A DNA stretch of 64,000 nucleotides from Dudresnaya verticillata (Eukaryota): the NCBI GenBank assembly GCA_977862235.1, contig OZ374565.1, positions 2,294,001 to 2,358,000 of the forward strand. The letters are read 5' to 3'. The position numbers and the translations under genes are program-made. The notes under the pieces were generated by a model, which was not told where the DNA came from, searched no databases, and saw only the letters and a list, made by a program, of their open reading frames with translations. Below, piece by piece: positions 3,408-49,781 of the stretch. Numbering within the stretch: the first letter of the stretch is position 1; every line of letters starts with the position of its first letter.

Positions 3408-3508
3408 TTCAACTTTATAACAGGTGATCATATTCTAATATTTTTCGACGTACAATCTACTCTAGTATCACACCAAAGTTAAACCCCAACTCAAGACAAC
3501 TTGCACAT

Positions 3509-6500
3509 CTACACCTCCTGTTGGATCCCTTCCATCAGGCACTTGACGTTGTTCTGCACCAGTCGCGCCGCGTGCCTGTGGAACAGAGCCGCTCGCGAAA
3601 CACCGCGAGTTACCATGGCCCGAGAAGCCACGGTATCCGCCAACTCTTGCATATACTTGTGCGCCTCCGGGTGCCAGCCACCTAGTGTGGTCATCGGCAC
3701 CGGCACAAGTCTTGCCCCCGGTCCGGCAGCCTGGATGAAGCCACGGTAAGTCCGCACCTTGTCAGCGTGGGCGTTCTTCAGCGTCCCTTGCGGGTTTGTT
3801 ATGCAGCTGAGAATGCGTTGTTCTGACGACAGTGGATGACTGATTGTGACGTCCAGGTAGTCCGTTCCTCCTTCTGTTCCAAGCGCCTTGATGTCCGGCC
3901 GATCCAGGTGAGCCCCCACAGGGCGGGGCTCCACAGTCGGGGTGCGTGTCGCACGTTTCAGATCCGAAGCCAGCAGACGAACCTGAGAGTCGTGGCGCCA
4001 CGACCGAGGAGATCCGCTGTTCCGCATGCCGTTCGGACAAATCAGCAGATGGTCGCCGTGAACATCCATCATCTTCTTGCACCCGGCCCGAGGACACTCC
4101 GTGTCGGGTTCCAGCAGTGGAATCCGACAGTAGAATCGAAGCCATACGCGGTAGTCCCGATCCGCAATGTACGTCTTCATGCCTGGTGCCGGCTGGCACT
4201 TGAGCCAGTCCTTGGCGCCCGGCACGCCAAGGGAAGCTCGGAAAGCTTGAGTCCGCCTGTCCCCGAGCGGCAGCTCGGCCTGCACCTTCTTCAGTACCAA
4301 CCGCGTCAAGTCCCGCTGGCGCGGGCACTCGTCGCTGTCGATCTTCTCCAGGTCCAGGGCATCCTCACTATGGCACTTGGCGCTCCAGTCTTCATGCGCT
4401 TCTACTGCAAAAGGATCATCAGAAAGAGCAGTGTTCACAGAAGCGGGTAAGATAGAACGCAGTAAGTTGCGGGTCAGTGAAAGGGACGCCAAAAACGCGC
4501 TCGAGTTCATGTCGCCAGCTCCCGAAATACCGATTCCGAAGCTGGGATCTTTCGTGCGCAGGGGAAGCTGAAGTTCGCGGAAGGTGTCCCTCGGTAGGAC
4601 TCCTCCCACGAGCTTGCGCATGCAAGCCTCAATCTTCTGGTCGAAGAGCTCGGCGCCCTTCGCCGTGGCGGATGATGGAACTACTCGCAGCAGGTAGTTC
4701 AGCCGGCAGACTCCGGCACAGTTGCGGAGTAGAGTTATGGCCACGTGTAGGTCTTCGAGTCCCGAAATTGCGTCCAGCAGGGGCTGGATGGACTCGACAT
4801 GGCCCTTCACGCTCTCCTCCATGTAGTTCTGCGTTCCAATCGGAGCCTGAAGTACTGTAGTGCCTTCTCCGTAGCTCTGCCCAAGATCCGACGGGTATGC
4901 AGCGCAGTCTTCTGGGTCGGGTGCAGTAGGCCACCAAACAGTACACTTGTCCATGCGCAGGTGGAAGCCGTAGCCCTTAGCTTCCTCGGAGTCAAAGAAG
5001 GACAGAACCTTCCTGAGTACGGCGTGTTTCGCCACGATGACGCCGTCGTCCAGGTAGAACAGTGACAGCAGCAAGTTGTTTGCTGCCTCCGCTTGCTGAT
5101 TGCGGCCCGAGCGCCGCAGGTCGGCGGTGAGTTCCTTCAACTGTTTGATCAGTGCCTGCAGCACCAAAGCAAACAGTAACGGCCCGAGCGGGTCACCTTG
5201 CTGTACACCAGTGACACTCCGCAGTAGAGTGTCACCCATCCACAGGTGCGGGCCCTCAGAGTCATAACAGTATCTGACCCACGATAGCAGTTCAGGCATA
5301 TGTCGGCGGACCTCCTTCATGAATGCTTTGCGGCTGACAAGGTTGAAGGCATTCTTCAAGTCCACTTGTAGCAACCCGTAGGACTTGTCATGGCCGTGAG
5401 AATTCTGCAGCTTCCGGACCGCGTGTACAATCGCTTCTGTGCCGCCCGAGGTTGCGACCCCGAGCTGAAGCGGTTCGAGGTATGCCTTGGCCTTGGGAGC
5501 GACTCTGGTCATGAGCATAGAGCTCACGAGTCGTCGGATTGTCTCTCCTACAGCAATGGGGCGGACACCGCCGGTGCGCTTCTTCAGAGCCGTGAGAGGA
5601 GCGCTGGCAATCCAAGGCGACAGCTCCGCAGGTCCTGCGCCGCTGGCCAGCACGTTGACCATTTTGGTGAGCCCGCCAAGCAGGCCCGTGTGCTCGTGGG
5701 TGGTCGGGACTGAGAGCAGTTCCTGCAGATGGGTCGGTGATAGTCCTGTGCCCCCCGAGGCCGAAGCCCGGGGGAACTTGGCCACTGCTTTTCGTACTTC
5801 GTCGGCTGTGAAAGGCACGAAGTCAGGGATGGTCGGCAGCGGTTCGGACTGGTCAAGCTCGTGGTCCGCGTCGGTTTGCGGTACGGACTGTGGGTGCTTG
5901 TCCGTCATGGACTGTATCACAGAGTCTGTGGCTGGGGCGATTCCATCAGAGTCTAGAGCTGCTGCTGCCTTACTGTAGGCGCCCTCCTTTGCGAGGCGAA
6001 GGGCTCGTGAGGCGTTGATACGGCGTTGCTCTTCTGCGGAAGGCGCAGTCTGCTCACGGAATGTCGAGCCCTTCAAGGCCTCCTGCCATAGGGAGTCGTA
6101 ATCCTTGAGTCCCCAGCGTCGGATTCGATCGCGGAAGGTGCCGATCGAGGACGCAGAGGTTGACGCGCCGGCCCTTGCACTCGCCGTGGGAGGATTGGAC
6201 AAGACGGCTGCTGGAAAAAGCAGGAATGCAGTGAGCTCTTTGGTGGCTTCCTGAGAGTTGTTTGCGTTCGTAAAAGCCCATACCGTCTTGGACAGTGCGT
6301 CGCGCACCTCTGCGCGGACGCGAGACGGTATATGTGTGACCATAGGGATATGCGAGCGACAGATATCTTCGACCGCCGGCAGAAGCTGCCCCCCCGGACC
6401 CCGCGCAGCGTGTCGGGTTTGCGCAGTTGGTACCTCTTGAGTAGCAGGTACCGGTGCAGGAGGCGGCTCCTGGCTGTCCGGGATTCGTCGCGGGGCTGGC

Positions 6501-6997
6501 AGGATATCGTCCGCTGGCTCGCCGTCCTCGGATTGCGTCTCCGTGACCACGTCCAGAGCAGGAGACTGTGATGGCGCGGCTACAGTTTCTTCACGGCTCG
6601 GTGTCGTCAATTGGTTGGACGGGACGTGGGAGAACGCCGGAGTGCGAGTAGCGGGACATGCGCTGCAATTCTTGTACCGCATACTGTACATGCCTTCACT
6701 GTTCATGCGGGAGCTACAGTGGGTGGGCATGTACTTGTTGTGAGTCACACAGTACCATACGCCATAGTCCAGGAGCTGCTGCTTGAGAGGCTCGATGTCG
6801 GTCCTCGTCGGTGGTCCTCGCCTGCCAGGAACATGCATCTTCCGCAGGTGCATGAGTAGCGCTTCTACAGTAGGCAGTGAGGACGACTGGCAGCCCAGAG
6901 GACAGCTGGTACTGTTTGTCGGGCGGTGTTTTGCCGAAGGCATAAAGCATGGAGAGAGCCATACCTTCGGCATGTCGGGGTGCTGCTGACCAATCAT
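3509..6997 (-). CDS. ZnF-RT-CCHC-RLE retrotransposon protein, 1162 aa
   Basis: CCHH finger CPLGC-x13-HLRKMH. RT motifs GGVRPIAVGETIRRL, QVDLKNAFN, GVQQGDPLGPLLF, FYLDDG. CCHC CPRAGC-x9-HLLIC. RLE motifs RHD, RPDI, YLDVTI, DKVRTY. ATG in AACCATG context. Confidence 0.95.
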   Translation of the reverse strand: MIGQQHPDMPKVWLSPCFMPSAKHRPTNSTSCPLGCQSSSLPTVEALLMHLRKMHVPGRRGPPTRTDIEPLKQQLLDYGVWYCVTHNKYMPTHCSSRMNSEGMYSMRYKNCSACPATRTPAFSHVPSNQLTTPSREETVAAPSQSPALDVVTETQSEDGEPADDILPAPRRIPDSQEPPPAPVPATQEVPTAQTRHAARGPGGQLLPAVEDICRSHIPMVTHIPSRVRAEVRDALSKTVWAFTNANNSQEATKELTAFLLFPAAVLSNPPTASARAGASTSASSIGTFRDRIRRWGLKDYDSLWQEALKGSTFREQTAPSAEEQRRINASRALRLAKEGAYSKAAAALDSDGIAPATDSVIQSMTDKHPQSVPQTDADHELDQSEPLPTIPDFVPFTADEVRKAVAKFPRASASGGTGLSPTHLQELLSVPTTHEHTGLLGGLTKMVNVLASGAGPAELSPWIASAPLTALKKRTGGVRPIAVGETIRRLVSSMLMTRVAPKAKAYLEPLQLGVATSGGTEAIVHAVRKLQNSHGHDKSYGLLQVDLKNAFNLVSRKAFMKEVRRHMPELLSWVRYCYDSEGPHLWMGDTLLRSVTGVQQGDPLGPLLFALVLQALIKQLKELTADLRRSGRNQQAEAANNLLLSLFYLDDGVIVAKHAVLRKVLSFFDSEEAKGYGFHLRMDKCTVWWPTAPDPEDCAAYPSDLGQSYGEGTTVLQAPIGTQNYMEESVKGHVESIQPLLDAISGLEDLHVAITLLRNCAGVCRLNYLLRVVPSSATAKGAELFDQKIEACMRKLVGGVLPRDTFRELQLPLRTKDPSFGIGISGAGDMNSSAFLASLSLTRNLLRSILPASVNTALSDDPFAVEAHEDWSAKCHSEDALDLEKIDSDECPRQRDLTRLVLKKVQAELPLGDRRTQAFRASLGVPGAKDWLKCQPAPGMKTYIADRDYRVWLRFYCRIPLLEPDTECPRAGCKKMMDVHGDHLLICPNGMRNSGSPRSWRHDSQVRLLASDLKRATRTPTVEPRPVGAHLDRPDIKALGTEGGTDYLDVTISHPLSSEQRILSCITNPQGTLKNAHADKVRTYRGFIQAAGPGARLVPVPMTTLGGWHPEAHKYMQELADTVASRAMVTRGVSRAALFHRHAARLVQNNVKCLMEGIQQEV

Positions 6998-7766
6998 GGT
7001 TACAGCGCTGGGTAAGGTACCTGTAAAGGTCCTCTACAGTAGGTTCCCTCGGGGCACAGACCTCCTAACCGGGACGCAAGCCTGTCGTCCGTCGTCAGTC
7101 TGTTCGGGACACCTCCAGAGGGTGCTACAGGTGGCCTTGCTGCGAGATGAAGGCCTCTTCGCAGCGTAGGGCGCGAGATCGCGCAATTTGCGCACGAGCT
7201 CGCGCAAAAGGGCGCACGTGTTAGCGTTCGCGCGCAGAGTTATCGGACGTTCCCTTCCCTGCCGCAGCTGAGAAGACTCTCTTCACTGCGGTCCTGTAAC
7301 GCGCGGTACTTCTCGTTTGCACAAGCTCTCAATGGGGTCGCAGAACCACCGTCTACCTGTGAGTGCCCACAGGATTTTTGGCCTCCCCCGAAGGTTCGCT
7401 GGCAGGACGTTCGCTCGATCTTAGAAGGGGTGGTTTCAAAACAGGATCCACCAGGCTTAAGCCACGTTACCCCAACTTCGACGTTGCTTGGCACGTTTCT
7501 GCGATGAGCTTGTGGGTCACGAGCCGCCTACCACTCAAGGTCGAGGGTCTTTGGCGATTCCCACACTTGTAGGTCTCTCGGCACTTCCCGAAGGAAGATT
7601 TTACAGGACAAGCCTGGCCTTTACCAATCTGTCAGTTGAAGGGTGTGAAACCCCTCTGTCGACAGTCCACGGCAGCCTAGACAGAGTCTAGGCTGTGCCG
7701 GGTACAAGCAAAACGCGTACAGGGCCAGGGAAAGAAAGATAAGTCAGTGGGGCCCGGGCAAATTTC

Positions 7767-7784
7767 AAGGTGAGGGATCACCTT
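7767..7784. other. Target-site mimic hairpin in the element 5' UTR (present in every full-length copy)
   Basis: AAGGTGA-GGGA-TCACCTT is a perfect 7-bp inverted repeat. AGGTGAGGGATCAC (7768-7781) is identical to 5S nt 83-96. Confidence 0.8.
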
Positions 7785-7818
7785 AAAAGTAAGCGCAAAA
7801 TAGGAAACGCGTGACCGT

Positions 7819-7861
7819 CGGCGACGACGGCGGCGGCGACGGCGGCGACGACGACGGCGTC
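7819..7861. repeat. Imperfect (GGC/GAC)n trinucleotide tract in the element 5' UTR (all full-length copies)
   Basis: CGGCGACGACGGCGGCGGCGACGGCGGCGACGACGACGGC. Confidence 0.85.
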
Positions 7862-8049
7862 GCGGCGCAGATCGGCGGCGCAAAAAGAGACAAAAGTAGA
7901 CCGCGCTCGCCCGCCCGCGAAGGTGAAGGGCTGAAAAACCCCGCACCGACGCGCCGTCGCGCGCTCGAACAGGCGGCACCGCCGCCGAAAAGATCGGTGC
8001 AGAACTTGTTGAGATATCCGCGAAACAAAATTTTCGGCAGATCGCGAGG

Positions 8050-8075
8050 AGTACTGAGGTGAGTACTGAGGTGAG
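8050..8075 (+). repeat. Inter-element junction: tandemly doubled 5S target sequence
   Basis: AGTACTGAGGTG x2 + AG, matching 5S nt 76-89. Confidence 0.9.
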
Positions 8076-11000
8076 TTCAACTTTATAACAGGTGATCATA
8101 TTCTAATATTTGTCGACGTACAATCTACTGTAGTATCACAACAAAGTTAAACCCCAACTCAAAACAACTTGCACATCTACACCTCCTGTTGGATCCCTTC
8201 CATCAGGCACTTGACGTTGTTCTGCACCAGTCGCGCCGCGTGCCTGTGGAATAGAGCCGCTCGCGAAACACCGCGAGTTACCATGGCCCGAGAAGCCACA
8301 GTATCCGCCAACTCTTGCATGTACTTGTGCGCCTCCGGGTGCCAGCCACCTAGTGTGGTCATCGGCACCGGCACAAGTCTTGCCCCCGGTCCGGCAGCCT
8401 GGATGAAGCCACGGTAAGTCCTCACCTTGTCAGCGTGGGCGTTCTTCAGCGTCCCTTGCGGGTTTGTTATGCAGCTGAGAACGCGTTGTTCTGACGACAG
8501 TGGATGACTGATTGTGACGTCCAGGTAGTCCGTTCCTCCTTCTGTTCCAAGCGCCTTGATGTCCGGCCGATCCAGGTGAGCCCCCACAGGGCGGGGCTCC
8601 ACAATCGGGGTGCGTGTTGCACGTTTCAGATCCGAAGCCAGCAGACGAACCTGAGAGTCGTGGCGCCACGACCGAGGAGATCCGCTGTTCCGCATGCCGT
8701 TCGGACAAATCAGCAGATGGTCGCCGTGAACATCCATCTTCTTCTTGCACCCGGCCCGAGGACACTCCGTGTCGGGTTCCAGCAGTGGAATCCGACAGTA
8801 GAATCGAAGCCATACGCGGTAGTCCCGATCCGCAATGTACGTCTTCATGCCTGGTGCCGGCTGGCACTTGAGCCAGTCCTTGGCGCCCGGCGCGCCAAGG
8901 GAAGCTCGGAAAGCTTGCGTCCGCCTGTCCCCGAGCGGCAGCTCGGCTTGCACTTTCTTCAGTACCAACCGCGTCAAGTCCCTCTGGCGTGGGCACTCGT
9001 CGCTGTCGATCTTCTCCAGGTCCAGAGCATCCTCACTATGGCACTTGGCGCTCCAGTCTTCGTGCGCTTCTACTGCAAAAGGATCGTCAGAAAGAGCAGT
9101 GTTCACAGAAGCGGGTAAGATAGAACGCAGTAAGTTGCGGGTCAGTGAAAGGGACGCCAAAAACGCGCTCGAGTTCATGTCGCCAGCTCCCGAAATACCG
9201 ATTCCGAAGCTGGGCTCTTTCGTGCGCAGGGGAAGCTGAAGTTCGCGGAAGGTGTCCCTCGGTAGGACTCCTCCCACGAGCTTGCGCATGCAAGCCTCAA
9301 TCTTCTGGTCGAAGAGCTCGGCGCCCTTCGCCGTGGCGGATGATGGAACTACTCGCAGCAGGTAGTTCAGCCGGCAGACTCCGGCACAGTTCCGGAGTAG
9401 AGTGATGGCCACGTGTAGGTCTTCTAGTCCCGAAATTGCGTCCAGCAGGGGCTGGATGGACTCTACATGGCCCTTCACGCTCTCCTCCATGTAGTTCTGC
9501 GTTCCAATCGGAGCCTGAAGTACTGTAGTGCCTTCTCCGTAGCTCTGCCCAAGATCCGACGGGTAGGCAGCGCAGTCTTCTGGGTCGGGTGCAGTAGGCC
9601 ACCAAACAGTACACTTGTCCATGCGCAGGTGGAAGCCATAGCCCTTAGCTTCCTCGGAGTCAAAGAAGGACAGAACCTTCCTGAGTACGGCGTGTTTCGC
9701 CACGATGACGCCGTCGTCCAGGTAGAACAGTGACAGCAGCAAGTTGTTCGCCCCCTCCGCTTGCTGATTGCGGCCCGAGCGCCGCAGGTCGGCGGTGAGT
9801 TCCTTCAACTGTTTGATCAGTGCCTGCAGCACCAAAGCAAACAGTAACGGCCCGAGCGGGTCACCTTGCTGTACACCAGTGACACTCCGCAGTAGAGTGT
9901 CACCCATCCACAGGTGCGGGCCCTCAGAGTCATAACAGTATCTGACCCACGGTAGTAGTTCAGGCATATGTCGGCGGACCTCCTTCATGAATGCTTTGCG
10001 GCTGACAAGGTTGAAGGCATTCTTCAAGTCCACTTGTAGCAACCCGTAGGACTTGTCATGGCCGTGAGACTTCTGCAGCTTCCGGACCGCGTGTACAATC
10101 GCTTCTGTGCCGCCCGAGGTTGCGACCCCGAGCTGAAGCGGTTCGAGGTATGCCTTGGCCTTGGGAGCGACTCTGGTCATGAGCATAGAGCTCACGAGTC
10201 GTCGGATTGTCTCTCCTACAGCAATGGGGCGGACACCGCCGGTGCGCTTCTTCAGAGCCGTGAGAGGAGCGCTGGCAATCCAAGGCGACAGCTCCGCAGG
10301 TCCTGCACCGTTGGCCAGCACGTTGACCATTTTGGTGAGCCCGCCAAGCAGGCCCGTGTGCTCGTGGGTGGTCGGGACTGAGAGCAGTTCCTGCAGATGG
10401 GTCGGTGATAGTCCTGTGCCCCCCGAGGCCGAAGCCCGGGGGAACTTGGCCACTGCTTTTCGTACTTCGTCGGCTGTGAAAGGCACGAAGTCAGGGATGG
10501 TCGGCAGCGGTTCGGACTGGTCAAGCTCGTGGTCCGCGTCGGTTTGCGGTACGGACTGTGGGTGCTTGTCCTTCATGGACTGTATCACAGAGTCTGTGGC
10601 TGGCGCGATTCCATCAGAGTCTAGAGCTGCTGCTGCCTTACTGTAGGCGCCCTCCTTTGCGAGGCGAAGGGCTCGTGAGGCGTTGATACGGCGTTGCTCT
10701 TCTGCGGAAGGCGCAGTCTGCTCACGGAATGTCGAGCCCTTCAAGGCCTCCTGCCATAGGGCGTCGTAATCCTTGAGTCCCCAGCGGCGGATTCGATCGC
10801 GGAAGGTCCCGATCGAGGACGCAGAGGTTGACGCGCCGGCCCTTGCACTCGCCGCGGGAGGATTGGACAAGACGGCTGCTGGAAAAAGCAGGAATGCAGT
10901 GAGCTCTTTGGTGGCTTCCTGAGAGTTGTTTGCGTTCGTAAAAGCCCATACCGTCTTGGACAGTGCGTCGCGCACCTCTGCGCGGACGCGAGACGGTATA

Positions 11001-12720
11001 TGTGTGACCATAGGGATATGCGAGCGACAGATATCTTCGACCGCCGGCAGAAGCTGCCCTCCTGGACCCCGCGCAGCGTGTCGGGTTTGCGCAGTTGGTA
11101 CCACTTGAGTAGCTGGTACCGGTGCAGGAGGCGGCTCCTGGCTGTCCGGGATTCGTCGCGGGGCTGGCAGGATATCGTCCGCCGGCTCGCCGTCCTCGGG
11201 TTGCGTCTCCGTGACCGCGTCCAGAGCAGGAGTCTGTGATGGCGCGGCTACAGTTTCTTCACGGCTCGGTGTCGTCAATTGGTTGGACGGGACGTGGGAG
11301 AACGCCGGAGTGCGAGTGGCGGGACATGCGCTGCAATTCTTGTACCGCATACTGTACATGCCTTCACTGTTCATGCGGGAGCTACAGTGGGTAGGCATGT
11401 ACTTGTTGTGAGTCACACAGTACCATACGCCATAGTCCAGGAGCTGCTGCTTGAGAGGCTCGATGTCGGTCCTCGTCGGTGGTCCTCGCCTGCCAGGAAC
11501 ATGCATCTTCCGCAGGTGCATGAGTAGCGCTTCTACAGTAGGCAGTGAGGACGACTGGCAGCCCAGAGGACAGCTGATACTGTTTGTCGGGCGGTGTTTT
11601 GCCGAAGGCATAAAGCATGGAGAGAGCCATACCTTCGGCATGTCGGGGTGCTGCTGACCAATCATGGTTACAGCGCTGGGTAAGGTACCTGTAAAGGTCC
11701 TCTACAGTAGGTTCCCACGGGGCACAGACCTCCTAACCGGGACGCAAGCCTGTCGTCCGTCGTCAGTCTGTTCGGGACACCTCCAGAGGGTGCTACAGGT
11801 GGCCTTGCTGCGAGATGAAGGCCTCTTCGCAGCGTAGGGCGCGAGATCGCGCAATTTGCGCACGAGCTCGCGCAAAAGGGCGCGCGTGTTAGCGTTCGTG
11901 CGCGCAGACTTATCGGACGTTCCCTTCCCTGCCGCAGCTGAGAAGACTCTCTTCACTGCGGTCCTGTAACGCGCGGTACTTCTCGTTTGCACAAGCTCTC
12001 AATGGGGTCGCAGAACCACCGTTTACCTGTGAGTGCCCACAGGATTTTTGGCCTCCCCCGAAGGTTCGCTGGCAGGACGTTCGCTCGATCTTAGAAGGGG
12101 TGGTTTCAAAACAGGATCCACCAGGCTTAAGCCACGTTACCCCAACTTCGACGTTGCTTGGCACGTTTCTGCGATGAGCTTGTGGGTCACGAGCCGCCTA
12201 CCACTCAAGGTCGAGGGTCTTTGGCGATTCCCACACTTGTAGGTCTCTCGGCACTTCCCGAAGGAAGATTTTACAGGACAAGCCTGGCCTTTACCAATCT
12301 GTCAGTTGAAGGGTGTGAAACCCCTCTGTCGACAGTCCACGGCAGCCTAGACAGAGTCTAGGCTGTGCCGGGTACAAGCAAAACGCGTACAGGGCCAGGG
12401 AAAGAAAGATAAGTCAGTGGGGCCCGGGCAAATTTCAAGGTGAGGGATCACCTTAAAAGTAAGCGCAAAATAGGAAACGCGTGACCGTCGGCGACGACGG
12501 CGGCGGCGACGGCGGCGACGACGACGGCGTCGCGGCGCAGATCGGCGGCGCAAAAAGAGACAAAAGTAGACCGCGCTCGCCCGCCGTCAAAGGTGAAGGG
12601 CTGAAAAACCCCGCACCGACGCGCCGTCGCGCGCTCGAACAGGCGGCACCGCCGCCGAAAAGATCGGTGCAGAACTTGCTGAGAAATCTCCGAAACAAAA
12701 AATTCGGCAGATCGCGAGGG
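8076..12720 (-). mobile_element. Copy E2: full-length (subfamily B)
   Basis: Same structure as E1. Followed by AGTACTGAGGTGAG (12721-12734). Confidence 0.95.
8177..11665 (-). CDS. ZnF-RT-CCHC-RLE protein, 1162 aa
   Basis: Intact ORF, same motifs as 3509-6997. Confidence 0.95.
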   Translation of the reverse strand: MIGQQHPDMPKVWLSPCFMPSAKHRPTNSISCPLGCQSSSLPTVEALLMHLRKMHVPGRRGPPTRTDIEPLKQQLLDYGVWYCVTHNKYMPTHCSSRMNSEGMYSMRYKNCSACPATRTPAFSHVPSNQLTTPSREETVAAPSQTPALDAVTETQPEDGEPADDILPAPRRIPDSQEPPPAPVPATQVVPTAQTRHAARGPGGQLLPAVEDICRSHIPMVTHIPSRVRAEVRDALSKTVWAFTNANNSQEATKELTAFLLFPAAVLSNPPAASARAGASTSASSIGTFRDRIRRWGLKDYDALWQEALKGSTFREQTAPSAEEQRRINASRALRLAKEGAYSKAAAALDSDGIAPATDSVIQSMKDKHPQSVPQTDADHELDQSEPLPTIPDFVPFTADEVRKAVAKFPRASASGGTGLSPTHLQELLSVPTTHEHTGLLGGLTKMVNVLANGAGPAELSPWIASAPLTALKKRTGGVRPIAVGETIRRLVSSMLMTRVAPKAKAYLEPLQLGVATSGGTEAIVHAVRKLQKSHGHDKSYGLLQVDLKNAFNLVSRKAFMKEVRRHMPELLPWVRYCYDSEGPHLWMGDTLLRSVTGVQQGDPLGPLLFALVLQALIKQLKELTADLRRSGRNQQAEGANNLLLSLFYLDDGVIVAKHAVLRKVLSFFDSEEAKGYGFHLRMDKCTVWWPTAPDPEDCAAYPSDLGQSYGEGTTVLQAPIGTQNYMEESVKGHVESIQPLLDAISGLEDLHVAITLLRNCAGVCRLNYLLRVVPSSATAKGAELFDQKIEACMRKLVGGVLPRDTFRELQLPLRTKEPSFGIGISGAGDMNSSAFLASLSLTRNLLRSILPASVNTALSDDPFAVEAHEDWSAKCHSEDALDLEKIDSDECPRQRDLTRLVLKKVQAELPLGDRRTQAFRASLGAPGAKDWLKCQPAPGMKTYIADRDYRVWLRFYCRIPLLEPDTECPRAGCKKKMDVHGDHLLICPNGMRNSGSPRSWRHDSQVRLLASDLKRATRTPIVEPRPVGAHLDRPDIKALGTEGGTDYLDVTISHPLSSEQRVLSCITNPQGTLKNAHADKVRTYRGFIQAAGPGARLVPVPMTTLGGWHPEAHKYMQELADTVASRAMVTRGVSRAALFHRHAARLVQNNVKCLMEGIQQEV

Positions 12721-12734
12721 AGTACTGAGGTGAG

Positions 12735-17378: not shown

Positions 17379-17392
17379 AGTACTGAGGTGAG

Positions 17393-36246: not shown

Positions 36247-36262
36247 GGTTCTCCCAGGTGAG

Positions 36263-37215
36263 TTCAACTTTATAACAGGTGACCATATTCTAATATTTGT
36301 CGACGTACAATCTACTGTAGTATCACAACAAAGTTAAACCCCAACTCAAAACAACCTGCACATCTACACCTCCTGTTGGATCCCTTCCATCAGGCACTTG
36401 ACGTTGTTCTGCACCAGTCGCGCCGCGTGCCTGTGGAACAGAGCCGCTCGCGAAACACCGCGAGTTACCATGGCCCGAGAAGCCACGGTATCCGCCAACT
36501 CTTGCATATACTTGTGCGCCTCCGGGTGCCAGCCACCTAGTGTGGTCATCGGCACCGGCACAAGCCTTGCCCCCGGTCCGGCAGCCTGGATGAAGCCACG
36601 GTAAGTCCGCACCTTGTCAGCGTGGGCGTTCTTCAGCGTCCCTTGCGGGTTTGTTATGCAGCTGAGAATGCGTTGTTCTGACGACAGTGGATGACTGATT
36701 GTGACGTCCAGGTAGTCCGTTCCTCCTTCTGTTCCAAGCGCCTTGATGTCCGGCCGATCCAAGTGAGCCCCCACAGGGCGGGGCTCCACAATCGGGGTGC
36801 GTGTCGCACGTTTCAGATCCGAAGCCAGCAGACGAACCTGAGAGTCGTGGCGCCACGACCGAGGAGATCCGCTGTTCCGCATGCCGTTCGGACAAATCAG
36901 CAGATGGTCGCCGTGAACATCCATCATCTTCTTGCACCCGGCCCGAGGACACTCCGTGTCGGGTTCCAGCAGTGGAATCCGACAGTAGAATCGAAGCCAT
37001 ACGCGGTAGTCCCGATCCGCAATGTACGTCTTCATGCCTGGTGCCGGCTGGCACTTGAGCCAGTCCTTGGCGCCCGGCACGCCAAGGGAAGCTCGGAAAG
37101 CTTGCGTCCGCCTGTCCCCGAGCGGCAGCTCGGCTTGCACTTTCTTCAGAACCAACCGCGTCAAGTCCCGCTGGCGCGGGCACTCGTCGCTGTCGATCTT
37201 CTCCAGGTCCAGGGC
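36263..37215 (-). mobile_element. Copy E9: 5'-truncated (953 bp; only CCHC/RLE coding part plus 3' UTR)
   Basis: Element similarity ends at ...TCCAGGGC, then AGGTGAG and 5S 3' sequence. Confidence 0.93.
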
Positions 37216-37222
37216 AGGTGAG

Positions 37223-37250
37223 GGATCACTCTGGAATCGCCAGTGCCGAA
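37223..37250 (+). pseudogene. 5S: Orphan 5S rRNA fragment (nt 90-117) between two elements
   Basis: GGATCACTCTGGAATCGCCAGTGCCGAA, preceded by AGGTGAG and followed by CCTCGAGGTGAG. No terminator, spacer or 5' half follows. Confidence 0.88.
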
Positions 37251-37262
37251 CCTCGAGGTGAG

Positions 37263-41902: not shown

Positions 41903-41970
41903 TGAGGGAGTACTCGAGGTGCAACAAAACAAAAATTTCGGCAGATCGCGGAGGGAGTCCTCGAGGTGAG

Positions 41971-44900
41971 TTCAACTTTATAACAGGTGATCATATTCTA
42001 ATATTTGTCGACGTACAATCTACTGTAGTATCACAACAAAGTTAAACCCCAACTCAAAACAACTTGCACATCTACACCTCCTGTTGGATCCCTTCCATCA
42101 GGCACTTGACGTTGTTCTGCACCAGTCGCGCCGCGTGCCTGTGGAATAGAGCCGCTCGCGAAACACCGCGAGTTACCATGGCCCGAGAAGCCACAGTATC
42201 CGCCAACTCTTGCATGTACTTGTGCGCCTCCGGGTGCCAGCCACCTAGTGTGGTCATCGGCACCGGCACAAGTCTTGCCCCCGGTCCGGCAGCCTGGATG
42301 AAGCCACGGTAAGTCCTCACCTTGTCAGCGTGGGCGTTCTTCAGCGTCCCTTGCGGGTTTGTTATGCAGCTGAGAACGCGTTGTTCTGACGACAGTGGAT
42401 GACTGATTGTGACGTCCAGGTAGTCCGTTCCTCCTTCTGTTCCAAGCGCCTTGATGTCCGGCCGATCCAGGTGAGCCCCCACAGGGCGGGGCTCCACAAT
42501 CGGGGTGCGTGTTGCACGTTTCAGATCCGAAGCCAGCAGACGAACCTGAGAGTCGTGGCGCCACGACCGAGGAGATCCGCTGTTCCGCATGCCGTTCGGA
42601 CAAATCAGCAGATGGTCGCCGTGAACATCCATCTTCTTCTTGCACCCGGCCCGAGGACACTCCGTGTCGGGTTCCAGCAGTGGAATCCGACAGTAGAATC
42701 GAAGCCATACGCGGTAGTCCCGATCCGCAATGTACGTCTTCATGCCTGGTGCCGGCTGGCACTTGAGCCAGTCCTTGGCGCCCGGCGCGCCAAGGGAAGC
42801 TCGGAAAGCTTGCGTCCGCCTGTCCCCGAGCGGCAGCTCGGCTTGCACTTTCTTCAGTACCAACCGCGTCAAGTCCCTCTGGCGTGGGCACTCGTCGCTG
42901 TCGATCTTCTCCAGGTCCAGAGCATCCTCACTATGGCACTTGGCGCTCCAGTCTTCGTGCGCTTCTACTGCAAAAGGATCGTCAGAAAGAGCAGTGTTCA
43001 CAGAAGCGGGTAAGATAGAACGCAGTAAGTTGCGGGTCAGTGAAAGGGACGCCAAAAACGCGCTCGAGTTCATGTCGCCAGCTCCCGAAATACCGATTCC
43101 GAAGCTGGGCTCTTTCGTGCGCAGGGGAAGCTGAAGTTCGCGGAAGGTGTCCCTCGGTAGGACTCCTCCCACGAGCTTGCGCATGCAAGCCTCAATCTTC
43201 TGGTCGAAGAGCTCGGCGCCCTTCGCCGTGGCGGATGATGGAACTACTCGCAGCAGGTAGTTCAGCCGGCAGACTCCGGCACAGTTCCGGAGTAGAGTGA
43301 TGGCCACGTGTAGGTCTTCTAGTCCCGAAATTGCGTCCAGCAGGGGCTGGATGGACTCTACATGGCCCTTCACGCTCTCCTCCATGTAGTTCTGCGTTCC
43401 AATCGGAGCCTGAAGTACTGTAGTGCCTTCTCCGTAGCTCTGCCCAAGATCCGACGGGTAGGCAGCGCAGTCTTCTGGGTCGGGTGCAGTAGGCCACCAA
43501 ACAGTACACTTGTCCATGCGCAGGTGGAAGCCATAGCCCTTAGCTTCCTCGGAGTCAAAGAAGGACAGAACCTTCCTGAGTACGGCGTGTTTCGCCACGA
43601 TGACGCCGTCGTCCAGGTAGAACAGTGACAGCAGCAAGTTGTTCGCCCCCTCCGCTTGCTGATTGCGGCCCGAGCGCCGCAGGTCGGCGGTGAGTTCCTT
43701 CAACTGTTTGATCAGTGCCTGCAGCACCAAAGCAAACAGTAACGGCCCGAGCGGGTCACCTTGCTGTACACCAGTGACACTCCGCAGTAGAGTGTCACCC
43801 ATCCACAGGTGCGGGCCCTCAGAGTCATAACAGTATCTGACCCACGGTAGTAGTTCAGGCATATGTCGGCGGACCTCCTTCATGAATGCTTTGCGGCTGA
43901 CAAGGTTGAAGGCATTCTTCAAGTCCACTTGTAGCAACCCGTAGGACTTGTCATGGCCGTGAGACTTCTGCAGCTTCCGGACCGCGTGTACAATCGCTTC
44001 TGTGCCGCCCGAGGTTGCGACCCCGAGCTGAAGCGGTTCGAGGTATGCCTTGGCCTTGGGAGCGACTCTGGTCATGAGCATAGAGCTCACGAGTCGTCGG
44101 ATTGTCTCTCCTACAGCAATGGGGCGGACACCGCCGGTGCGCTTCTTCAGAGCCGTGAGAGGAGCGCTGGCAATCCAAGGCGACAGCTCCGCAGGTCCTG
44201 CACCGTTGGCCAGCACGTTGACCATTTTGGTGAGCCCGCCAAGCAGGCCCGTGTGCTCGTGGGTGGTCGGGACTGAGAGCAGTTCCTGCAGATGGGTCGG
44301 TGATAGTCCTGTGCCCCCCGAGGCCGAAGCCCGGGGGAACTTGGCCACTGCTTTTCGTACTTCGTCGGCTGTGAAAGGCACGAAGTCAGGGATGGTCGGC
44401 AGCGGTTCGGACTGGTCAAGCTCGTGGTCCGCGTCGGTTTGCGGTACGGACTGTGGGTGCTTGTCCTTCATGGACTGTATCACAGAGTCTGTGGCTGGCG
44501 CGATTCCATCAGAGTCTAGAGCTGCTGCTGCCTTACTGTAGGCGCCCTCCTTTGCGAGGCGAAGGGCTCGTGAGGCGTTGATACGGCGTTGCTCTTCTGC
44601 GGAAGGCGCAGTCTGCTCACGGAATGTCGAGCCCTTCAAGGCCTCCTGCCATAGGGAGTCGTAATCCTTGAGTCCCCAGCGTCGGATTCGATCGCGGAAG
44701 GTGCCGATCGAGGACGCAGAGGTTGACGCGCCGGCCCTTGCACTCGCCGTGGGAGGATTGGACAAGACGGCTGCTGGAAAAAGCAGGAATGCAGTGAGCT
44801 CTTTGGTGGCTTCCTGAGAGTTGTTTGCGTTCGTAAAAGCCCATACCGTCTTGGACAGTGCGTCGCGCACCTCTGCGCGGACGCGAGACGGTATATGTGT

Positions 44901-46615
44901 GACCATAGGGATATGCGAGCGACAGATATCTTCGACCGCCGGCAGAAGCTGCCCTCCTGGACCCCGCGCAGCGTGTCGGGTTTGCGCAGTTGGTACCACT
45001 TGAGTAGCTGGTACCGGTGCAGGAGGCGGCTCCTGGCTGTCCGGGATTCGTCGCGGGGCTGGCAGGATATCGTCCGCCGGCTCGCCGTCCTCGGGTTGCG
45101 TCTCCGTGACCGCGTCCAGAGCAGGAGTCTGTGATGGCGCGGCTACAGTTTCTTCACGGCTCGGTGTCGTCAATTGGTTGGACGGGACGTGGGAGAACGC
45201 CGGAGTGCGAGTGGCGGGACATGCGCTGCAATTCTTGTACCGCATACTGTACATGCCTTCACTGTTCATGCGGGAGCTACAGTGGGTAGGCATGTACTTG
45301 TTGTGAGTCACACAGTACCATACGCCATAGTCCAGGAGCTGCTGCTTGAGAGGCTCGATGTCGGTCCTCGTCGGTGGTCCTCGCCTGCCAGGAACATGCA
45401 TCTTCCGCAGGTGCATGAGTAGCGCTTCTACAGTAGGCAGTGAGGACGACTGGCAGCCCAGAGGACAGCTGATACTGTTTGTCGGGCGGTGTTTTGCCGA
45501 AGGCATAAAGCATGGAGAGAGCCATACCTTCGGCATGTCGGGGTGCTGCTGACCAATCATGGTTACAGCGCTGGGTAAGGTACCTGTAAAGGTCCTCTAC
45601 AGTAGGTTCCCACGGGGCACAGACCTCCTAACCGGGACGCAAGCCTGTCGTCCGTCGTCAGTCTGTTCGGGACACCTCCAGAGGGTGCTACAGGTGGCCT
45701 TGCTGCGAGATGAAGGCCTCTTCGCAGCGTAGGGCGCGAGATCGCGCAATTTGCGCACGAGCTCGCGCAAAAGGGCGCGCGTGTTAGCGTTCGTGCGCGC
45801 AGACTTATCGGACGTTCCCTTCCCTGCCGCAGCTGAGAAGACTCTCTTCACTGCGGTCCTGTAACGCGCGGTACTTCTCGTTTGCACAAGCTCTCAATGG
45901 GGTCGCAGAACCACCGTTTACCTGTGAGTGCCCACAGGATTTTTGGCCTCCCCCGAAGGTTCGCTGGCAGGACGTTCGCTCGATCTTAGAAGGGGTGGTT
46001 TCAAAACAGGATCCACCAGGCTTAAGCCACGTTACCCCAACTTCGACGTTGCTTGGCACGTTTCTGCGATGAGCTTGTGGGTCACGAGCCGCCTACCACT
46101 CAAGGTCGAGGGTCTTTGGCGATTCCCACACTTGTAGGTCTCTCGGCACTTCCCGAAGGAAGATTTTACAGGACAAGCCTGGCCTTTACCAATCTGTCAG
46201 TTGAAGGGTGTGAAACCCCTCTGTCGACAGTCCACGGCAGCCTAGACAGAGTCTAGGCTGTGCCGGGTACAAGCAAAACGCGTACAGGGCCAGGGAAAGA
46301 AAGATAAGTCAGTGGGGCCCGGGCAAATTTCAAGGTGAGGGATCACCTTAAAAGTAAGCGCAAAATAGGAAACGCGTGACCGTCGGCGACGACGGCGGCG
46401 GCGACGGCGGCGACGACGACGGCGTCGCGGCGCAGATCGGCGGCGCAAAAAGAGACAAAAGTAGACCGCGCTCGCCCGCCGTCAAAGGTGAAGGGCTGAA
46501 AAACCCCGCACCGACGCGCCGTCGCGCGCTCGAACAGGCGGCACCGCCGCCGAAAAGATCGGTGCAGAACTTGCTGAGAAATCTCCGAAACAAAAAATTC
46601 GGCAGATCGCGAGGG
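41971..46615 (-). mobile_element. Copy E11: full-length (B with A-type patch)
   Basis: 5' junction GATCGCGAGGG-AGTACT-C-GAGGTGAG. Confidence 0.95.
42072..45560 (-). CDS. ZnF-RT-CCHC-RLE protein, 1162 aa
   Basis: Intact ORF, same motifs. Confidence 0.95.
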   Translation of the reverse strand: MIGQQHPDMPKVWLSPCFMPSAKHRPTNSISCPLGCQSSSLPTVEALLMHLRKMHVPGRRGPPTRTDIEPLKQQLLDYGVWYCVTHNKYMPTHCSSRMNSEGMYSMRYKNCSACPATRTPAFSHVPSNQLTTPSREETVAAPSQTPALDAVTETQPEDGEPADDILPAPRRIPDSQEPPPAPVPATQVVPTAQTRHAARGPGGQLLPAVEDICRSHIPMVTHIPSRVRAEVRDALSKTVWAFTNANNSQEATKELTAFLLFPAAVLSNPPTASARAGASTSASSIGTFRDRIRRWGLKDYDSLWQEALKGSTFREQTAPSAEEQRRINASRALRLAKEGAYSKAAAALDSDGIAPATDSVIQSMKDKHPQSVPQTDADHELDQSEPLPTIPDFVPFTADEVRKAVAKFPRASASGGTGLSPTHLQELLSVPTTHEHTGLLGGLTKMVNVLANGAGPAELSPWIASAPLTALKKRTGGVRPIAVGETIRRLVSSMLMTRVAPKAKAYLEPLQLGVATSGGTEAIVHAVRKLQKSHGHDKSYGLLQVDLKNAFNLVSRKAFMKEVRRHMPELLPWVRYCYDSEGPHLWMGDTLLRSVTGVQQGDPLGPLLFALVLQALIKQLKELTADLRRSGRNQQAEGANNLLLSLFYLDDGVIVAKHAVLRKVLSFFDSEEAKGYGFHLRMDKCTVWWPTAPDPEDCAAYPSDLGQSYGEGTTVLQAPIGTQNYMEESVKGHVESIQPLLDAISGLEDLHVAITLLRNCAGVCRLNYLLRVVPSSATAKGAELFDQKIEACMRKLVGGVLPRDTFRELQLPLRTKEPSFGIGISGAGDMNSSAFLASLSLTRNLLRSILPASVNTALSDDPFAVEAHEDWSAKCHSEDALDLEKIDSDECPRQRDLTRLVLKKVQAELPLGDRRTQAFRASLGAPGAKDWLKCQPAPGMKTYIADRDYRVWLRFYCRIPLLEPDTECPRAGCKKKMDVHGDHLLICPNGMRNSGSPRSWRHDSQVRLLASDLKRATRTPIVEPRPVGAHLDRPDIKALGTEGGTDYLDVTISHPLSSEQRVLSCITNPQGTLKNAHADKVRTYRGFIQAAGPGARLVPVPMTTLGGWHPEAHKYMQELADTVASRAMVTRGVSRAALFHRHAARLVQNNVKCLMEGIQQEV

Positions 46616-46630
46616 AGTACTCGAGGTGAG

Positions 46631-49600
46631 TTCAACTTTATAACAGGTGATCATATTCTAATATTTGTCGACGTACAATCTACTGTAGTATCACAACAAA
46701 GTTAAACCCCAACTCAAAACAACTTGCACATCTACACCTCCTGTTGGATCCCTTCCATCAGGCACTTGACGTTGTTCTGCACCAGTCGCGCCGCGTGCCT
46801 GTGGAATAGAGCCGCTCGCGAAACACCGCGAGTTACCATGGCCCGAGAAGCCACAGTATCCGCCAACTCTTGCATGTACTTGTGCGCCTCCGGGTGCCAG
46901 CCACCTAGTGTGGTCATCGGCACCGGCACAAGTCTTGCCCCCGGTCCGGCAGCCTGGATGAAGCCACGGTAAGTCCTCACCTTGTCAGCGTGGGCGTTCT
47001 TCAGCGTCCCTTGCGGGTTTGTTATGCAGCTGAGAACGCGTTGTTCTGACGACAGTGGATGACTGATTGTGACGTCCAGGTAGTCCGTTCCTCCTTCTGT
47101 TCCAAGCGCCTTGATGTCCGGCCGATCCAGGTGAGCCCCCACAGGGCGGGGCTCCACAATCGGGGTGCGTGTTGCACGTTTCAGATCCGAAGCCAGCAGA
47201 CGAACCTGAGAGTCGTGGCGCCACGACCGAGGAGATCCGCTGTTCCGCATGCCGTTCGGACAAATCAGCAGATGGTCGCCGTGAACATCCATCTTCTTCT
47301 TGCACCCGGCCCGAGGACACTCCGTGTCGGGTTCCAGCAGTGGAATCCGACAGTAGAATCGAAGCCATACGCGGTAGTCCCGATCCGCAATGTACGTCTT
47401 CATGCCTGGTGCCGGCTGGCACTTGAGCCAGTCCTTGGCGCCCGGCGCGCCAAGGGAAGCTCGGAAAGCTTGCGTCCGCCTGTCCCCGAGCGGCAGCTCG
47501 GCTTGCACTTTCTTCAGTACCAACCGCGTCAAGTCCCTCTGGCGTGGGCACTCGTCGCTGTCGATCTTCTCCAGGTCCAGAGCATCCTCACTATGGCACT
47601 TGGCGCTCCAGTCTTCGTGCGCTTCTACTGCAAAAGGATCGTCAGAAAGAGCAGTGTTCACAGAAGCGGGTAAGATAGAACGCAGTAAGTTGCGGGTCAG
47701 TGAAAGGGACGCCAAAAACGCGCTCGAGTTCATGTCGCCAGCTCCCGAAATACCGATTCCGAAGCTGGGCTCTTTCGTGCGCAGGGGAAGCTGAAGTTCG
47801 CGGAAGGTGTCCCTCGGTAGGACTCCTCCCACGAGCTTGCGCATGCAAGCCTCAATCTTCTGGTCGAAGAGCTCGGCGCCCTTCGCCGTGGCGGATGATG
47901 GAACTACTCGCAGCAGGTAGTTCAGCCGGCAGACTCCGGCACAGTTGCGGAGTAGAGTTATGGCCACGTGTAGGTCTTCGAGTCCCGAAATTGCGTCCAG
48001 CAGGGGCTGGATGGACTCGACATGGCCCTTCACGCTCTCCTCCATGTAGTTCTGCGTTCCAATCGGAGCCTGAAGTACTGTAGTGCCTTCTCCGTAGCTC
48101 TGCCCAAGATCCGACGGGTATGCAGCGCAGTCTTCTGGGTCGGGTGCAGTAGGCCACCAAACAGTACACTTGTCCATGCGCAGGTGGAAGCCATAGCCCT
48201 TAGCTTCCTCGGAGTCAAAGAAGGACAGAACCTTCCTGAGTACGGCGTGTTTCGCCACGATGACGCCGTCGTCCAGGTAGAACAGTGACAGCAGCAAGTT
48301 GTTTGCTGCCTCCGCTTGCTGATTGCGGCCCGAGCGCCGCAGGTCGGCGGTGAGTTCCTTCAACTGTTTGATCAGTGCCTGCAGCACCAAAGCAAACAGT
48401 AACGGCCCGAGCGGGTCACCTTGCTGTACACCAGTGACACTCCGCAGTAGAGTGTCACCCATCCACAGGTGCGGGCCCTCAGAGTCATAACAGTATCTGA
48501 CCCACGATAGCAGTTCAGGCATATGTCGGCGGACCTCCTTCATGAATGCTTTGCGGCTGACAAGGTTGAAGGCATTCTTCAAGTCCACTTGTAGCAACCC
48601 GTAGGACTTGTCATGGCCGTGAGAATTCTGCAGCTTCCGGACCGCGTGTACAATGGCTTCTGTGCCGCCCGAGGTTGCGACCCCGAGCTGAAGCGGTTCG
48701 AGGTATGCCTTGGCCTTGGGAGCGACTCTGGTCATGAGCATAGAGCTCACGAGTCGTCGGATTGTCTCTCCTACAGCAATGGGGCGGACACCGCCGGTGC
48801 GCTTCTTCAGAGCCGTGAGAGGAGCGCTGGCAATCCAAGGCGACAGCTCCGCAGGTCCTGCGCCGCTGGCCAGCACGTTGACCATTTTGGTGAGCCCGCC
48901 AAGCAGGCCCGTGTGCTCGTGGGTGGTCGGGACTGAGAGCAGTTCCTGCAGATGGGTCGGTGATAGTCCTGTGCCCCCCGAGGCCGAAGCCCGGGGGAAC
49001 TTGGCCACTGCTTTTCGTACTTCGTCGGCTGTGAAAGGCACGAAGTCAGGGATGGTCGGCAGCGGTTCGGACTGGTCAAGCTCGTGGTCCGCGTCGGTTT
49101 GCGGTACGGACTGTGGGTGCTTGTCCGTCATGGACTGTATCACAGAGTCTGTGGCTGGGGCGATTCCATCAGAGTCTAGAGCTGCTGCTGCCTTACTGTA
49201 GGCGCCCTCCTTTGCGAGGCGAAGGGCTCGTGAGGCGTTGATACGGCGTTGCTCTTCTGCGGAAGGCGCAGTCTGCTCACGGAATGTCGAGCCCTTCAAG
49301 GCCTCCTGCCATAGGGAGTCGTAATCCTTGAGTCCCCAGCGTCGGATTCGATCGCGGAAGGTGCCGATCGAGGACGCAGAGGTTGACGCGCCGGCCCTTG
49401 CACTCGCCGTGGGAGGATTGGACAAGACGGCTGCTGGAAAAAGCAGGAATGCAGTGAGCTCTTTGGTGGCTTCCTGAGAGTTGTTTGCGTTCGTAAAAGC
49501 CCATACCGTCTTGGACAGTGCGTCGCGCACCTCTGCGCGGACGCGAGACGGTATATGTGTGACCATAGGGATATGCGAGCGACAGATATCTTCGACCGCC

Positions 49601-49769
49601 GGCAGAAGCTGCCCCCCCGGACCCCGCGCAGCGTGTCGGGTTTGCGCAGTTGGTACCTCTTGAGTAGCAGGTACCGGTGCAGGAGGCGGCTCCTGGCTGT
49701 CCGGGATTCGTCGCGGGGCTGGCAGGATATCGTCCGCTGGCTCGCCGTCCTCGGATTGCGTCTCCGTGA
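46631..49769 (-). mobile_element. Copy E12: 5'-truncated (A/B chimera), lacks 5' UTR and zinc finger region
   Basis: Similarity ends at ...TCTCCGTGA, then ACTC and GAGGTGAG (49774-49781), then the 5S 3' part. Confidence 0.94.
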
Positions 49770-49781
49770 ACTCGAGGTGAG

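What the first reader, a model, noticed from the sequence alone, without database searches (positions are those of the whole stretch)
3408..49781. Twelve elements (~46 kb) stacked head-to-tail between two halves of a 5S gene
Seen: between the 5S 5' half (ends 3407) and the next complete 3' half (49782) lie 9 full-length and 3 truncated copies. They are separated only by short junctions ending in AGGTGAG, and almost every junction has its own sequence. A second stack starts at 50991. Inference: insertion does not destroy the target, so one half-site plus the duplication is enough for re-cleavage at the same bond. Distinct junctions and truncation points favour serial retrotransposition over pure unequal crossing-over or assembly artefact.
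Basis: partly seen in the sequence, partly recalled or inferred. Interest (0 to 1): 0.8.

Follow-up and report, generated by a model that had tools for sequence, protein, structure and literature searches.

The report
Retrotransposon stack growing inside 5S genes
Twelve copies of one mobile element sit head-to-tail inside a single broken 5S ribosomal RNA gene, and their junctions suggest they were added one at a time because each insertion likely rebuilds the landing site; such stacking is known for other elements, but this target and depth appear to be new.

Summary
The stack is real: 9 full-length and 3 5'-truncated copies of a 4.64-kb single-ORF non-LTR retrotransposon (zinc finger, RT, restriction-like endonuclease; CRE-like) lie antisense between nt 89 and 90 of a 120-nt 5S gene. 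All 12 full ORFs in the window are open (pN/pS 0.10-0.24), and no copy-plus-junction block repeats.

The junctions give the direction. Right-hand junctions copy non-5S letters from their left neighbour, and a 40-bp duplication of the target likely created a second growth point. New copies therefore likely insert at the element-5'/duplication/5S-3'-half junction. Seven 5S bases on the primer side and at most 28 on the other appear enough; a 7+7 copy in the element's own 5' UTR is never used (0 of 11).

Stacking by re-insertion at the 5' duplication is published for Drosophila R1 (2-3 per unit). What looks new is an RLE element targeting the 5S gene, the depth, and a readable insertion order. 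No spanning reads or genome were available. New variant of a known kind; interest 0.5.

The parts
1..2198 (-). End of an upstream stack: 5'-truncated copy a0 (cut by the window start) plus junction 2179-2198
2199..3407 (+). 5S repeat unit remnant: 3' half (2199-2229), spacer, 5' half; identical (0 of 1209 differences) to 49782-50990
3319..3407 (+). 5S rRNA gene 5' half, nt 1-89, ending at the first-strand cut site
3408..8075 (-). Copy c1 (full, haplotype A) plus junction J1, which has a 12-nt tandem repeat of the duplication
3509..7033 (-). ORF of c1, 1174 codons stop to stop: C2H2 finger (aa 44-67), RT (PF00078, aa 484-700, YLDD at 660), CCHC knuckle and RHD..E..RPD..D endonuclease (from aa 980)
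7768..7781 (+). Exact 14-nt copy of the uncut target core (7 nt each side of the cut) in the element 5' UTR, inside an 11-bp-stem predicted hairpin; present in 11 copies, never interrupted
8076..12734 (-). Copy c2 (full, haplotype B) plus J2
12735..17392 (-). Copy c3 (full, haplotype C) plus J3
17393..22050 (-). Copy c4 (full, haplotype A) plus J4
22051..26712 (-). Copy c5 (full, haplotype B') plus J5, the first junction that has lost the 14-nt 5S match
26699..26712 (+). Last 14 nt of J5, identical to 37249-37262; 6 of the 14 are not 5S letters
26713..31361 (-). Copy c6 (full, C) plus J6
31362..31602 (-). Copy c7 (235 nt, truncated, C) plus J7
31603..36262 (-). Copy c8 (full, C) plus J8
36263..37222 (-). 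Copy c9 (954 nt, truncated, C) plus J9a
37223..37262 (+). 28-nt piece of the 5S 3' half (37223-37250) plus J9b (37251-37262): trace of an inferred 40-bp tandem duplication of the target
37263..41970 (-). Copy c10 (full, C) plus double junction J10
41971..46630 (-). Copy c11 (full, B) plus J11
46631..49781 (-). Copy c12 (3139 nt, truncated, B/A mosaic) plus J12; flanked on both sides by the same 12 nt, which depart from 5S
49782..49812 (+). 5S rRNA gene 3' half, nt 90-120, followed by a T-run
50902..50990 (+). Next 5S 5' half
50991..64000 (-). Second stack: d1 (50991), d2 (55663), d3 (60323, cut by the window end)

Best explanation
A recently active CRE-like non-LTR retrotransposon sits in twelve head-to-tail copies in one 5S gene, most likely because each insertion duplicates 7-14 bp of the site and so rebuilds a cuttable target at the element-5'/5S-3'-half junction, where the next copy would insert. 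Steps: (1) The protein recognises mainly the 5S 3' half, which is upstream in element orientation (inferred). (2) It nicks the 5S sense strand after nt 89 and primes reverse transcription there (the cut position is shown by 15 of 15 identical 3' junctions; the chemistry is inferred from R2). (3) The other strand is cut or joined 7-14 nt away, with microhomology, extra bases and repeated joining attempts (junction sequences shown; process inferred). (4) The duplication restores the 7-nt core next to an intact 3' half, so the stack grows toward the 3' half and each new junction copies the previous one (inferred from junction inheritance for copies 6-12). (5) After copy 5, a 40-bp duplication of junction plus 3'-half piece made two targets, which received copies 6-9 and 10-12 (inferred).
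For: Protein: RT, endonuclease motif order, and a model (mean pLDDT 81) whose top 7 PDB matches are R2 proteins. 12 of 12 full ORFs are open, with pN/pS 0.10-0.24 in 7 of 7 pairs compared.

Junction inheritance: the right flank matches the left flank better than it matches 5S for c8 (9 v 7 nt), c9 (8 v 7), c10 (12 v 8), c11 (11 v 8) and c12 (12 v 8). c12 is truncated, so its junction cannot come from the RNA 5' end. J5 and J9b share 14 nt. The four 14-nt 5S-type junctions are the first four of 13 (permutation p 0.0014); same-class neighbours number 9 (p 0.0004).

The 7+7 core in the 5' UTR is uninterrupted in 11 of 11 copies, while 16 copies in the window sit at 5S-derived sites. For R2Bm, upstream target is required and downstream target is dispensable for cleavage (PMC10499050 passages). 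Tandem R1 is explained by insertion into the 5' duplication (PMC2718515).
Against: The junction classes were defined after seeing the data, so the p-values are optimistic. Of 12 copies only 5 are informative: c1, c5 and c7 tie, and c2-c4 match through shared element ends. Part of the match for c9 and c11 is element-templated, and the CCTC letters arose once without a template (J5), so they could recur. c6 matches 5S better than its left flank (10 v 8); this is explained only by its own 5'-end variant.

The order of c1-c5 cannot be read. Junction clustering alone does not separate growth at the right end from cutting of internal junctions. Haplotypes run A,B,C,A,B,C over c1-c6 and mosaics exist, so recombination has acted. 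There is no age gradient. All evidence comes from one window, with no biochemistry and no spanning reads.
Confidence: 0.72

Rival explanations
1. Growth at the other end: the 5S-5'-half/element-3' junction is re-cut, and every duplication is copied from the true 5S 5' half.
For: J1-J4, K1 and K2 carry a 14-nt 5S match; c6 matches 5S better than its left flank. Not excluded for c1-c5 or d1-d3.
Against: It needs the non-5S letters shared by J5/J9b/J10, J11/J12 and J7/J8 to arise independently, or the 5S 5' half to change state three times. It does not explain why a J5 copy lies next to a 5S 3'-half piece. The two 5S units in view are identical.
Confidence: 0.08
2. Unequal crossing-over or gene conversion amplified a small founder array.
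For: A,B,C,A,B,C order in c1-c6; J3 equals J4; J1 equals J4 plus a 12-nt repeat; c12 is a B/A mosaic (0 differences to B over nt 1-1040, 3 to A over nt 1041-3139). Recombination is known to reshape MoTeR and R1 arrays (PMC7367193 and 10.1101/158386 passages).
Against: c1/c4, c2/c5 and c3/c6 differ at 10, 22 and 7 substitutions, and five of the six have a closer relative elsewhere; c5's closest is c2, at 22. J2 differs from J5 and J3 from J6. The three truncation points differ. The spacer units are identical while neighbouring elements differ at about 60 sites.
Confidence: 0.07
3. Internal element/element junctions are also cut, with only the 7-14 bp duplication needed, so copies land anywhere in the stack.
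For: Copying of the left junction would give the same clustering; it cannot be excluded copy by copy for c7-c9.
Against: The 14-nt core in the 5' UTR is unused (0 of 11). The 40-bp duplication and c12 both place events at a 3'-half junction.
Confidence: 0.06
4. Several copies arrive in one event, by RT jumping between RNAs whose 3' tails carry target sequence, or by reverse transcription of read-through multimers.
For: R2 RT template-jumps in vitro and R1 transcripts carry flanking target (passages). Mosaics and the double join at J10 show a jumping enzyme. Five consecutive copies (c6-c10) are haplotype C.
Against: Left junctions are not tied to haplotype (the seven C copies with a visible left junction have seven different ones). 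Matching left and right flanks need copying from the DNA at the site. No neighbour pair with its junction recurs in the window.
Confidence: 0.05
5. Assembly artefact from a collapsed or mis-joined repeat.
For: 96% of the window is one repeat; no spanning read was seen.
Against: Copies differ by 0-76 substitutions with open ORFs and mostly synonymous changes, and the junctions form a consistent left-to-right genealogy that an assembler would not invent.
Confidence: 0.02

Closest known systems
Tandem R1 arrays in Drosophila 28S genes (Stage and Eickbush 2009, PMC2718515; McGurk and Barbash, 10.1101/158386)
   Same: Head-to-tail copies at one rRNA-gene site, separated by the target duplication; proposed to form by insertion at the 5' duplication; 16-27 nt target rearrangements resemble J9.
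   Different: R1 targets 28S and has an apurinic-type endonuclease (recalled). Its duplication is mostly a fixed 14 bp and averages 2-3 copies per unit at most; the very large melanogaster array has identical junctions from recombination. Here there are 12 copies with mostly distinct, drifting junctions.
CRE-group RLE elements (CRE1/2, SLACS, MoTeR, FoTeR, GilM/T)
   Same: N-terminal C2H2 finger, RT, CCHC plus RHD..E..PD..D endonuclease in the same order; head-to-tail arrays with variable separators are described for MoTeR (PMC7367193); the only retrotransposon names among the listed protein hits are SLACS (automatic annotation).
   Different: Their targets are telomere repeats (passages read) or spliced-leader genes (recalled), not 5S. 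The CCHC spacing 4/9/3/13 is slightly outside the published SLACS/CRE ranges. The element and its 23 closest hits form their own branch (100/99).
Mutsu (zebrafish 5S-targeting LINE; PMC5340908)
   Same: Sequence-specific insertion that disrupts 5S rRNA genes in a tandem array.
   Different: Mutsu has two ORFs and a poly(A) stretch and inserts about 20 nt from the 5S 5' end; this element has one ORF, no poly(A), and inserts after nt 89. Mutsu is a Tx1-clade, apurinic-endonuclease element (recalled).
Utopia-1_NVit (RLE element in U2 genes; PMC4640811) and R2Bm (PMC10499050)
   Same: RLE elements that target RNA genes; Utopia is occasionally tandem; R2 needs upstream but not downstream target; R2 proteins are the best structural matches.
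   Different: Different targets; Utopia tandems are occasional; most Drosophila R2 junctions show no duplication or a deletion (PMC2718515), so the site is not rebuilt.

Membership tests
RLE-type non-LTR retrotransposon | Reverse transcriptase domain | tested here: met
   PF00078, E 5e-17, aa 484-700
RLE-type non-LTR retrotransposon | C-terminal CCHC knuckle plus PD..D/ExK endonuclease | tested here: met
   Motif from aa 980, conserved across 21 sequences; top fold matches are R2 proteins
RLE-type non-LTR retrotransposon | Fixed 3' junction, variable 5' truncation, target alteration, no LTRs | tested here: met
   15 of 15 identical 3' ends; 4 truncations in the window; no terminal repeat in self-BLAST
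RLE-type non-LTR retrotransposon | Target-primed reverse transcription activity | not testable with these tools
   Needs biochemistry
CRE clade | RT phylogeny groups with curated CRE/SLACS/CZAR references to the exclusion of R2, NeSL, R4 and HERO | tested here: inconclusive
   The tree of 50 hits has no outgroup or curated reference, and the SLACS-named rows do not form one compact clade. SLACS-named hits score 211-238 bits against 75 for R2 (different query type).
CRE clade | SLACS/CRE endonuclease motif spacing as quoted in PMC12857005 | tested here: inconclusive
   Order met; spacings 19, 9, 13 and 3 fit; 4, 9 and 13 in the knuckle exceed the quoted 1-3, 7-8 and 9-10
CRE clade | N-terminal C2H2 zinc finger | tested here: met
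   aa 44-67 by pattern; not reported by Pfam
Mutsu | Insertion into the 5S rRNA gene | tested here: met
Mutsu | Site about 20 nt from the 5S 5' end | tested here: not met
   Site after nt 89 versus PMC5340908
Mutsu | [quoted passage not shown] | tested here: not met
   One long ORF; no A-tail
R2 | 28S rDNA target | tested here: not met
   Only 5S found in the window
R2 | Myb domain after the zinc finger(s) | tested here: inconclusive
   No Pfam hit; the N-terminal model has low to moderate confidence
R1-type tandem array (works-like test) | Copies separated by target duplication at the normal site | tested here: met
   All junctions end in the 7-nt core, with 7-14 nt of 5S match
R1-type tandem array (works-like test) | New copies enter at the 5' end of existing copies | tested here: inconclusive
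   Supported by inheritance for c6-c12, unreadable for c1-c5

The most novel reading that the evidence does not exclude
The element is the first restriction-endonuclease retrotransposon specialised on the 5S gene, its stack is a one-directional record of successive insertions, and it finds or processes its site with help from its own RNA: the 5' UTR holds an exact complement of the first-cut strand spanning 7 nt on each side of the cut, which could act as an internal guide. That would make it a naturally RNA-assisted, self-renewing landing-pad integrase.
Probability: 0.12. Interest if true: 0.82.

Novelty: new variant of a known kind. Interest (0 to 1): 0.5.

Why it matters
It adds a probable second, independent invasion of the 5S rRNA gene, by a different enzyme class and at a different site than Mutsu. 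The stack also works as a natural mutagenesis series that narrows the target to about 7 bp plus 8-28 bp, giving direct predictions for a CRE-like enzyme; the only solved non-LTR retrotransposon proteins among the listed matches were R2 and L1. An insertion that rebuilds its own site is of interest for serial gene stacking. It shows how a 1.2-kb 5S repeat can be swollen to 47 kb per unit, and that Rfam calls these broken genes 5S above threshold. The stacking principle itself is already in print.

Tried and rejected
No whole genome is held, so no genome-wide census of stacks or intact 5S genes. One public run shares 8% of the words (no RNA holder listed); laid twice, it gave short pieces on the spacer and RT region and nothing across a junction, so it says nothing about the array.

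80 related metagenome loci (about a third of the collection scanned; best 27-48% identity) showed no convincing 5S flank by BLAST or nhmmer (80 of 80, best 16/17-nt matches at E 0.34) or by Rfam (20 of 80). Most are short contigs, so whether the closest relatives target 5S is open. The cluster look-up for names of the ten close relatives chosen could not be made. A 5S pattern scan of viral contigs gave 0. A full-text search for the 5S 5' end gave 0 papers, so the host stays unidentified; 'red alga' is only recalled resemblance.

No divergence gradient along the stack. Rfam found no ribozyme or other RNA in the element (three chance-level hits). ESM Atlas gave only RT clusters. Three look-ups of earlier scan findings were empty. 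A trimer duplication of c1-c3 was considered and rejected. A cap-derived C as the source of the CTCG junctions was considered; it cannot explain truncated c12 or J9b. The 2025 survey of site-specific RLE elements by Fell et al. is not held.
Full report
OBSERVATION. The window is 96% one repeat (61,582 of 64,000 nt, junctions included). Rfam finds two 5S 5' halves, 3319-3407 and 50902-50990. The matching 3' half (31 nt, closing a perfect 9-bp terminal helix and followed by a T-run) is at 2199 and 49782. The two 1209-nt units between stacks are identical. All 15 element 3' ends in view start at the same base after AGGTGAG.

THE ELEMENT. It is about 4.64 kb, antisense to 5S, with no poly(A) and no terminal repeat. 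One ORF of 1174 codons stop to stop is open in 12 of 12 copies that contain it whole. It encodes a C2H2 finger, an RT and a CCHC-RHD..E..RPD..D endonuclease. The model (pLDDT 81, pTM 0.75) has R2 proteins as its top seven PDB matches. Of 216 protein hits, 120 were listed; the best 23 (36-57% identity) form one branch with it (100/99) in a tree of 50 of the 121 sequences. The only retrotransposon names among the hits are SLACS, so the element is CRE-like, but membership was not shown because curated references and outgroups were lacking. Copies fall into three haplotype groups about 60 substitutions apart: A (c1, c4, d2), B (c2, c5, c11, d3) and C (a0, c3, c6-c10, d1); c12 is a B/A mosaic. pN/pS is 0.10-0.24 in the 7 pairs compared, so the lineages diverged under selection for a working protein. 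Private variants are 0-7 per copy in the main stack with no gradient, so the stack is young. The host is not identified; the 5S resembles red-algal 5S from memory only, and a full-text search did not confirm it. The cut lies in the region of the 5S internal promoter box C (recalled).

READING THE JUNCTIONS. The + strand is the first cDNA strand, so each junction is what was added after the element 5' end was reached. If new copies entered at the 5S 5' half, every junction would be an independent copy of true 5S. If they entered next to the 3' half, each junction would copy its left neighbour. One search shows the second pattern. J1-J4 keep 14 nt of 5S and none of the nine later junctions does (p 0.0014); same-class neighbours number 9 of 13 (p 0.0004; classes defined after the fact). 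c12, a truncated copy, is flanked on both sides by the same 12 nt, of which only 8 match 5S. c10 (12 v 8), c11 (11 v 8), c8 (9 v 7) and c9 (8 v 7) point the same way, though c9 and c11 partly through element-templated letters. c1, c5 and c7 tie; c2-c4 are uninformative; c6 goes the other way (8 v 10), but its extra letters are its own 5'-end variant, shared with c10 and d2. J9b repeats the last 14 nt of J5 although four copies lie between them. The simplest account is a 40-bp tandem duplication (12 nt of J5 plus 28 nt of 3' half, with AA microhomology) made while J5 touched the 3' half, possibly during insertion of c6. Copies 6-9 then filled the first target and 10-12 the second. At least c7-c9 would thus have entered a site with only 7-10 nt of 5S on one side and 28 on the other. 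The 14-nt core alone is not enough: it occurs in the 5' UTR of 11 copies (0.03 matches expected by chance per shuffled window) and is never interrupted.

MECHANISM AND RIVALS. Shown: structure, fixed first cut, variable 7-14 nt duplications, open ORFs, inheritance pattern. Inferred: recognition of the 3' half, re-cleavage, order of events. The inference matches R2Bm, where mutating upstream DNA abolishes cleavage and mutating downstream DNA does not (PMC10499050, passages). Against the reading: only 5 of 12 copies are informative, c1-c5 cannot be ordered, cutting of internal junctions gives similar clustering, and the A,B,C,A,B,C run plus mosaics show that recombination or template switching has contributed. 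A trimer duplication is unlikely because junctions and nearest relatives do not repeat. No read spans any junction and no genome was available.

WHAT IS KNOWN. Stage and Eickbush (PMC2718515; passages and section 15) describe tandem R1 arrays separated by the 14-bp duplication, attribute them to insertion into the duplication at the 5' end of existing copies, give 2-3 per unit as the highest average, and describe 16-27 nt target rearrangements. McGurk and Barbash (10.1101/158386; passages) generalise double insertion. Utopia-1_NVit is occasionally tandem in U2 genes (PMC4640811; passages and section 6), Dada-U1 is tandem in U1 genes (PMC3706591; passages), and MoTeR arrays are head-to-tail with variable separators (PMC7367193; passages). 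The stacking principle is therefore known. For 5S, the only sequence-specific retrotransposon I found is Mutsu: two ORFs, about 20 nt from the 5' end (PMC5340908; passages). A 2024 review (PMC10946416; passages) says no TE insertion within the 5S gene had been reported, although its own table lists Mutsu and a FISH-based Rex3 case as 'into 5S'. Jockey-like elements interrupt Tribolium 5S arrays (PMC11202950; passages). Passages of PMC10088271, PMC12857005, PMC13580325 and PMC3747384 added motif definitions and no 5S-targeting RLE element. Ten searches found no RLE or CRE element in 5S genes.

VERDICT. Real, well explained by serial target-primed insertion with target regeneration at the element 5' end (confidence 0.72). 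New variant of a known kind: new target and enzyme pairing, unusual depth, and a junction genealogy that maps the minimal site.

Noticed in passing
window 7768-7781 and ten homologous sites (12438, 17097, 21755, 26413, 31075, 35965, 41625, 46333, 55354, 60025): The element 5' UTR holds an exact 14-nt copy of the uncut target, 7 nt each side of the cut, inside a predicted 11-bp-stem hairpin; the last 369 nt fold better than shuffles (z -3.75). Relic of an old junction, protein-binding site or guide: unexplained.
   Followed up: partly
window 3319-3436 and 50902-51019: Rfam scores the broken 5S 5' half plus element 3' end above the gathering threshold as full-length 5S, so automatic annotation would count these as intact genes.
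   Followed up: yes
window 46631-49769: Copy c12 is haplotype B for about 1040 nt from the 3' end and haplotype A beyond; c11 differs from c2 only in an A-like patch. Template switching or gene conversion.
   Followed up: partly
window 41880-41970: J10 reads as a first join to the target, a return about 35 nt into the element 5' end, and a second join; J1, the junction before 55663 and 2179-2198 also show repeated partial target copies.
   Followed up: partly
window 3408-31361 and 50991-64000: Haplotype order A,B,C,A,B,C in c1-c6 and C,A,B in the second stack; A is followed by B in 3 of 3 cases. Junctions do not repeat, so chance or old duplication plus conversion.
   Followed up: partly
window 2199-3407, 49782-50990: All three 5S sites in view are occupied; the 1209-nt repeat units are identical while neighbouring elements differ by about 1.3%.
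   Followed up: yes
protein P0006: A close relative carries an extra N-terminal domain with precomputed Pfam PF02902 (Ulp1-type protease, name recalled).
   Followed up: no
L022, L024, L025, L030, L031: Five loci hold 97-99% identical copies of a 3.2-kb distant relative (32-35% protein identity) as single copies on different contigs, some beside local repeats; no 5S or other Rfam hit.
   Followed up: partly
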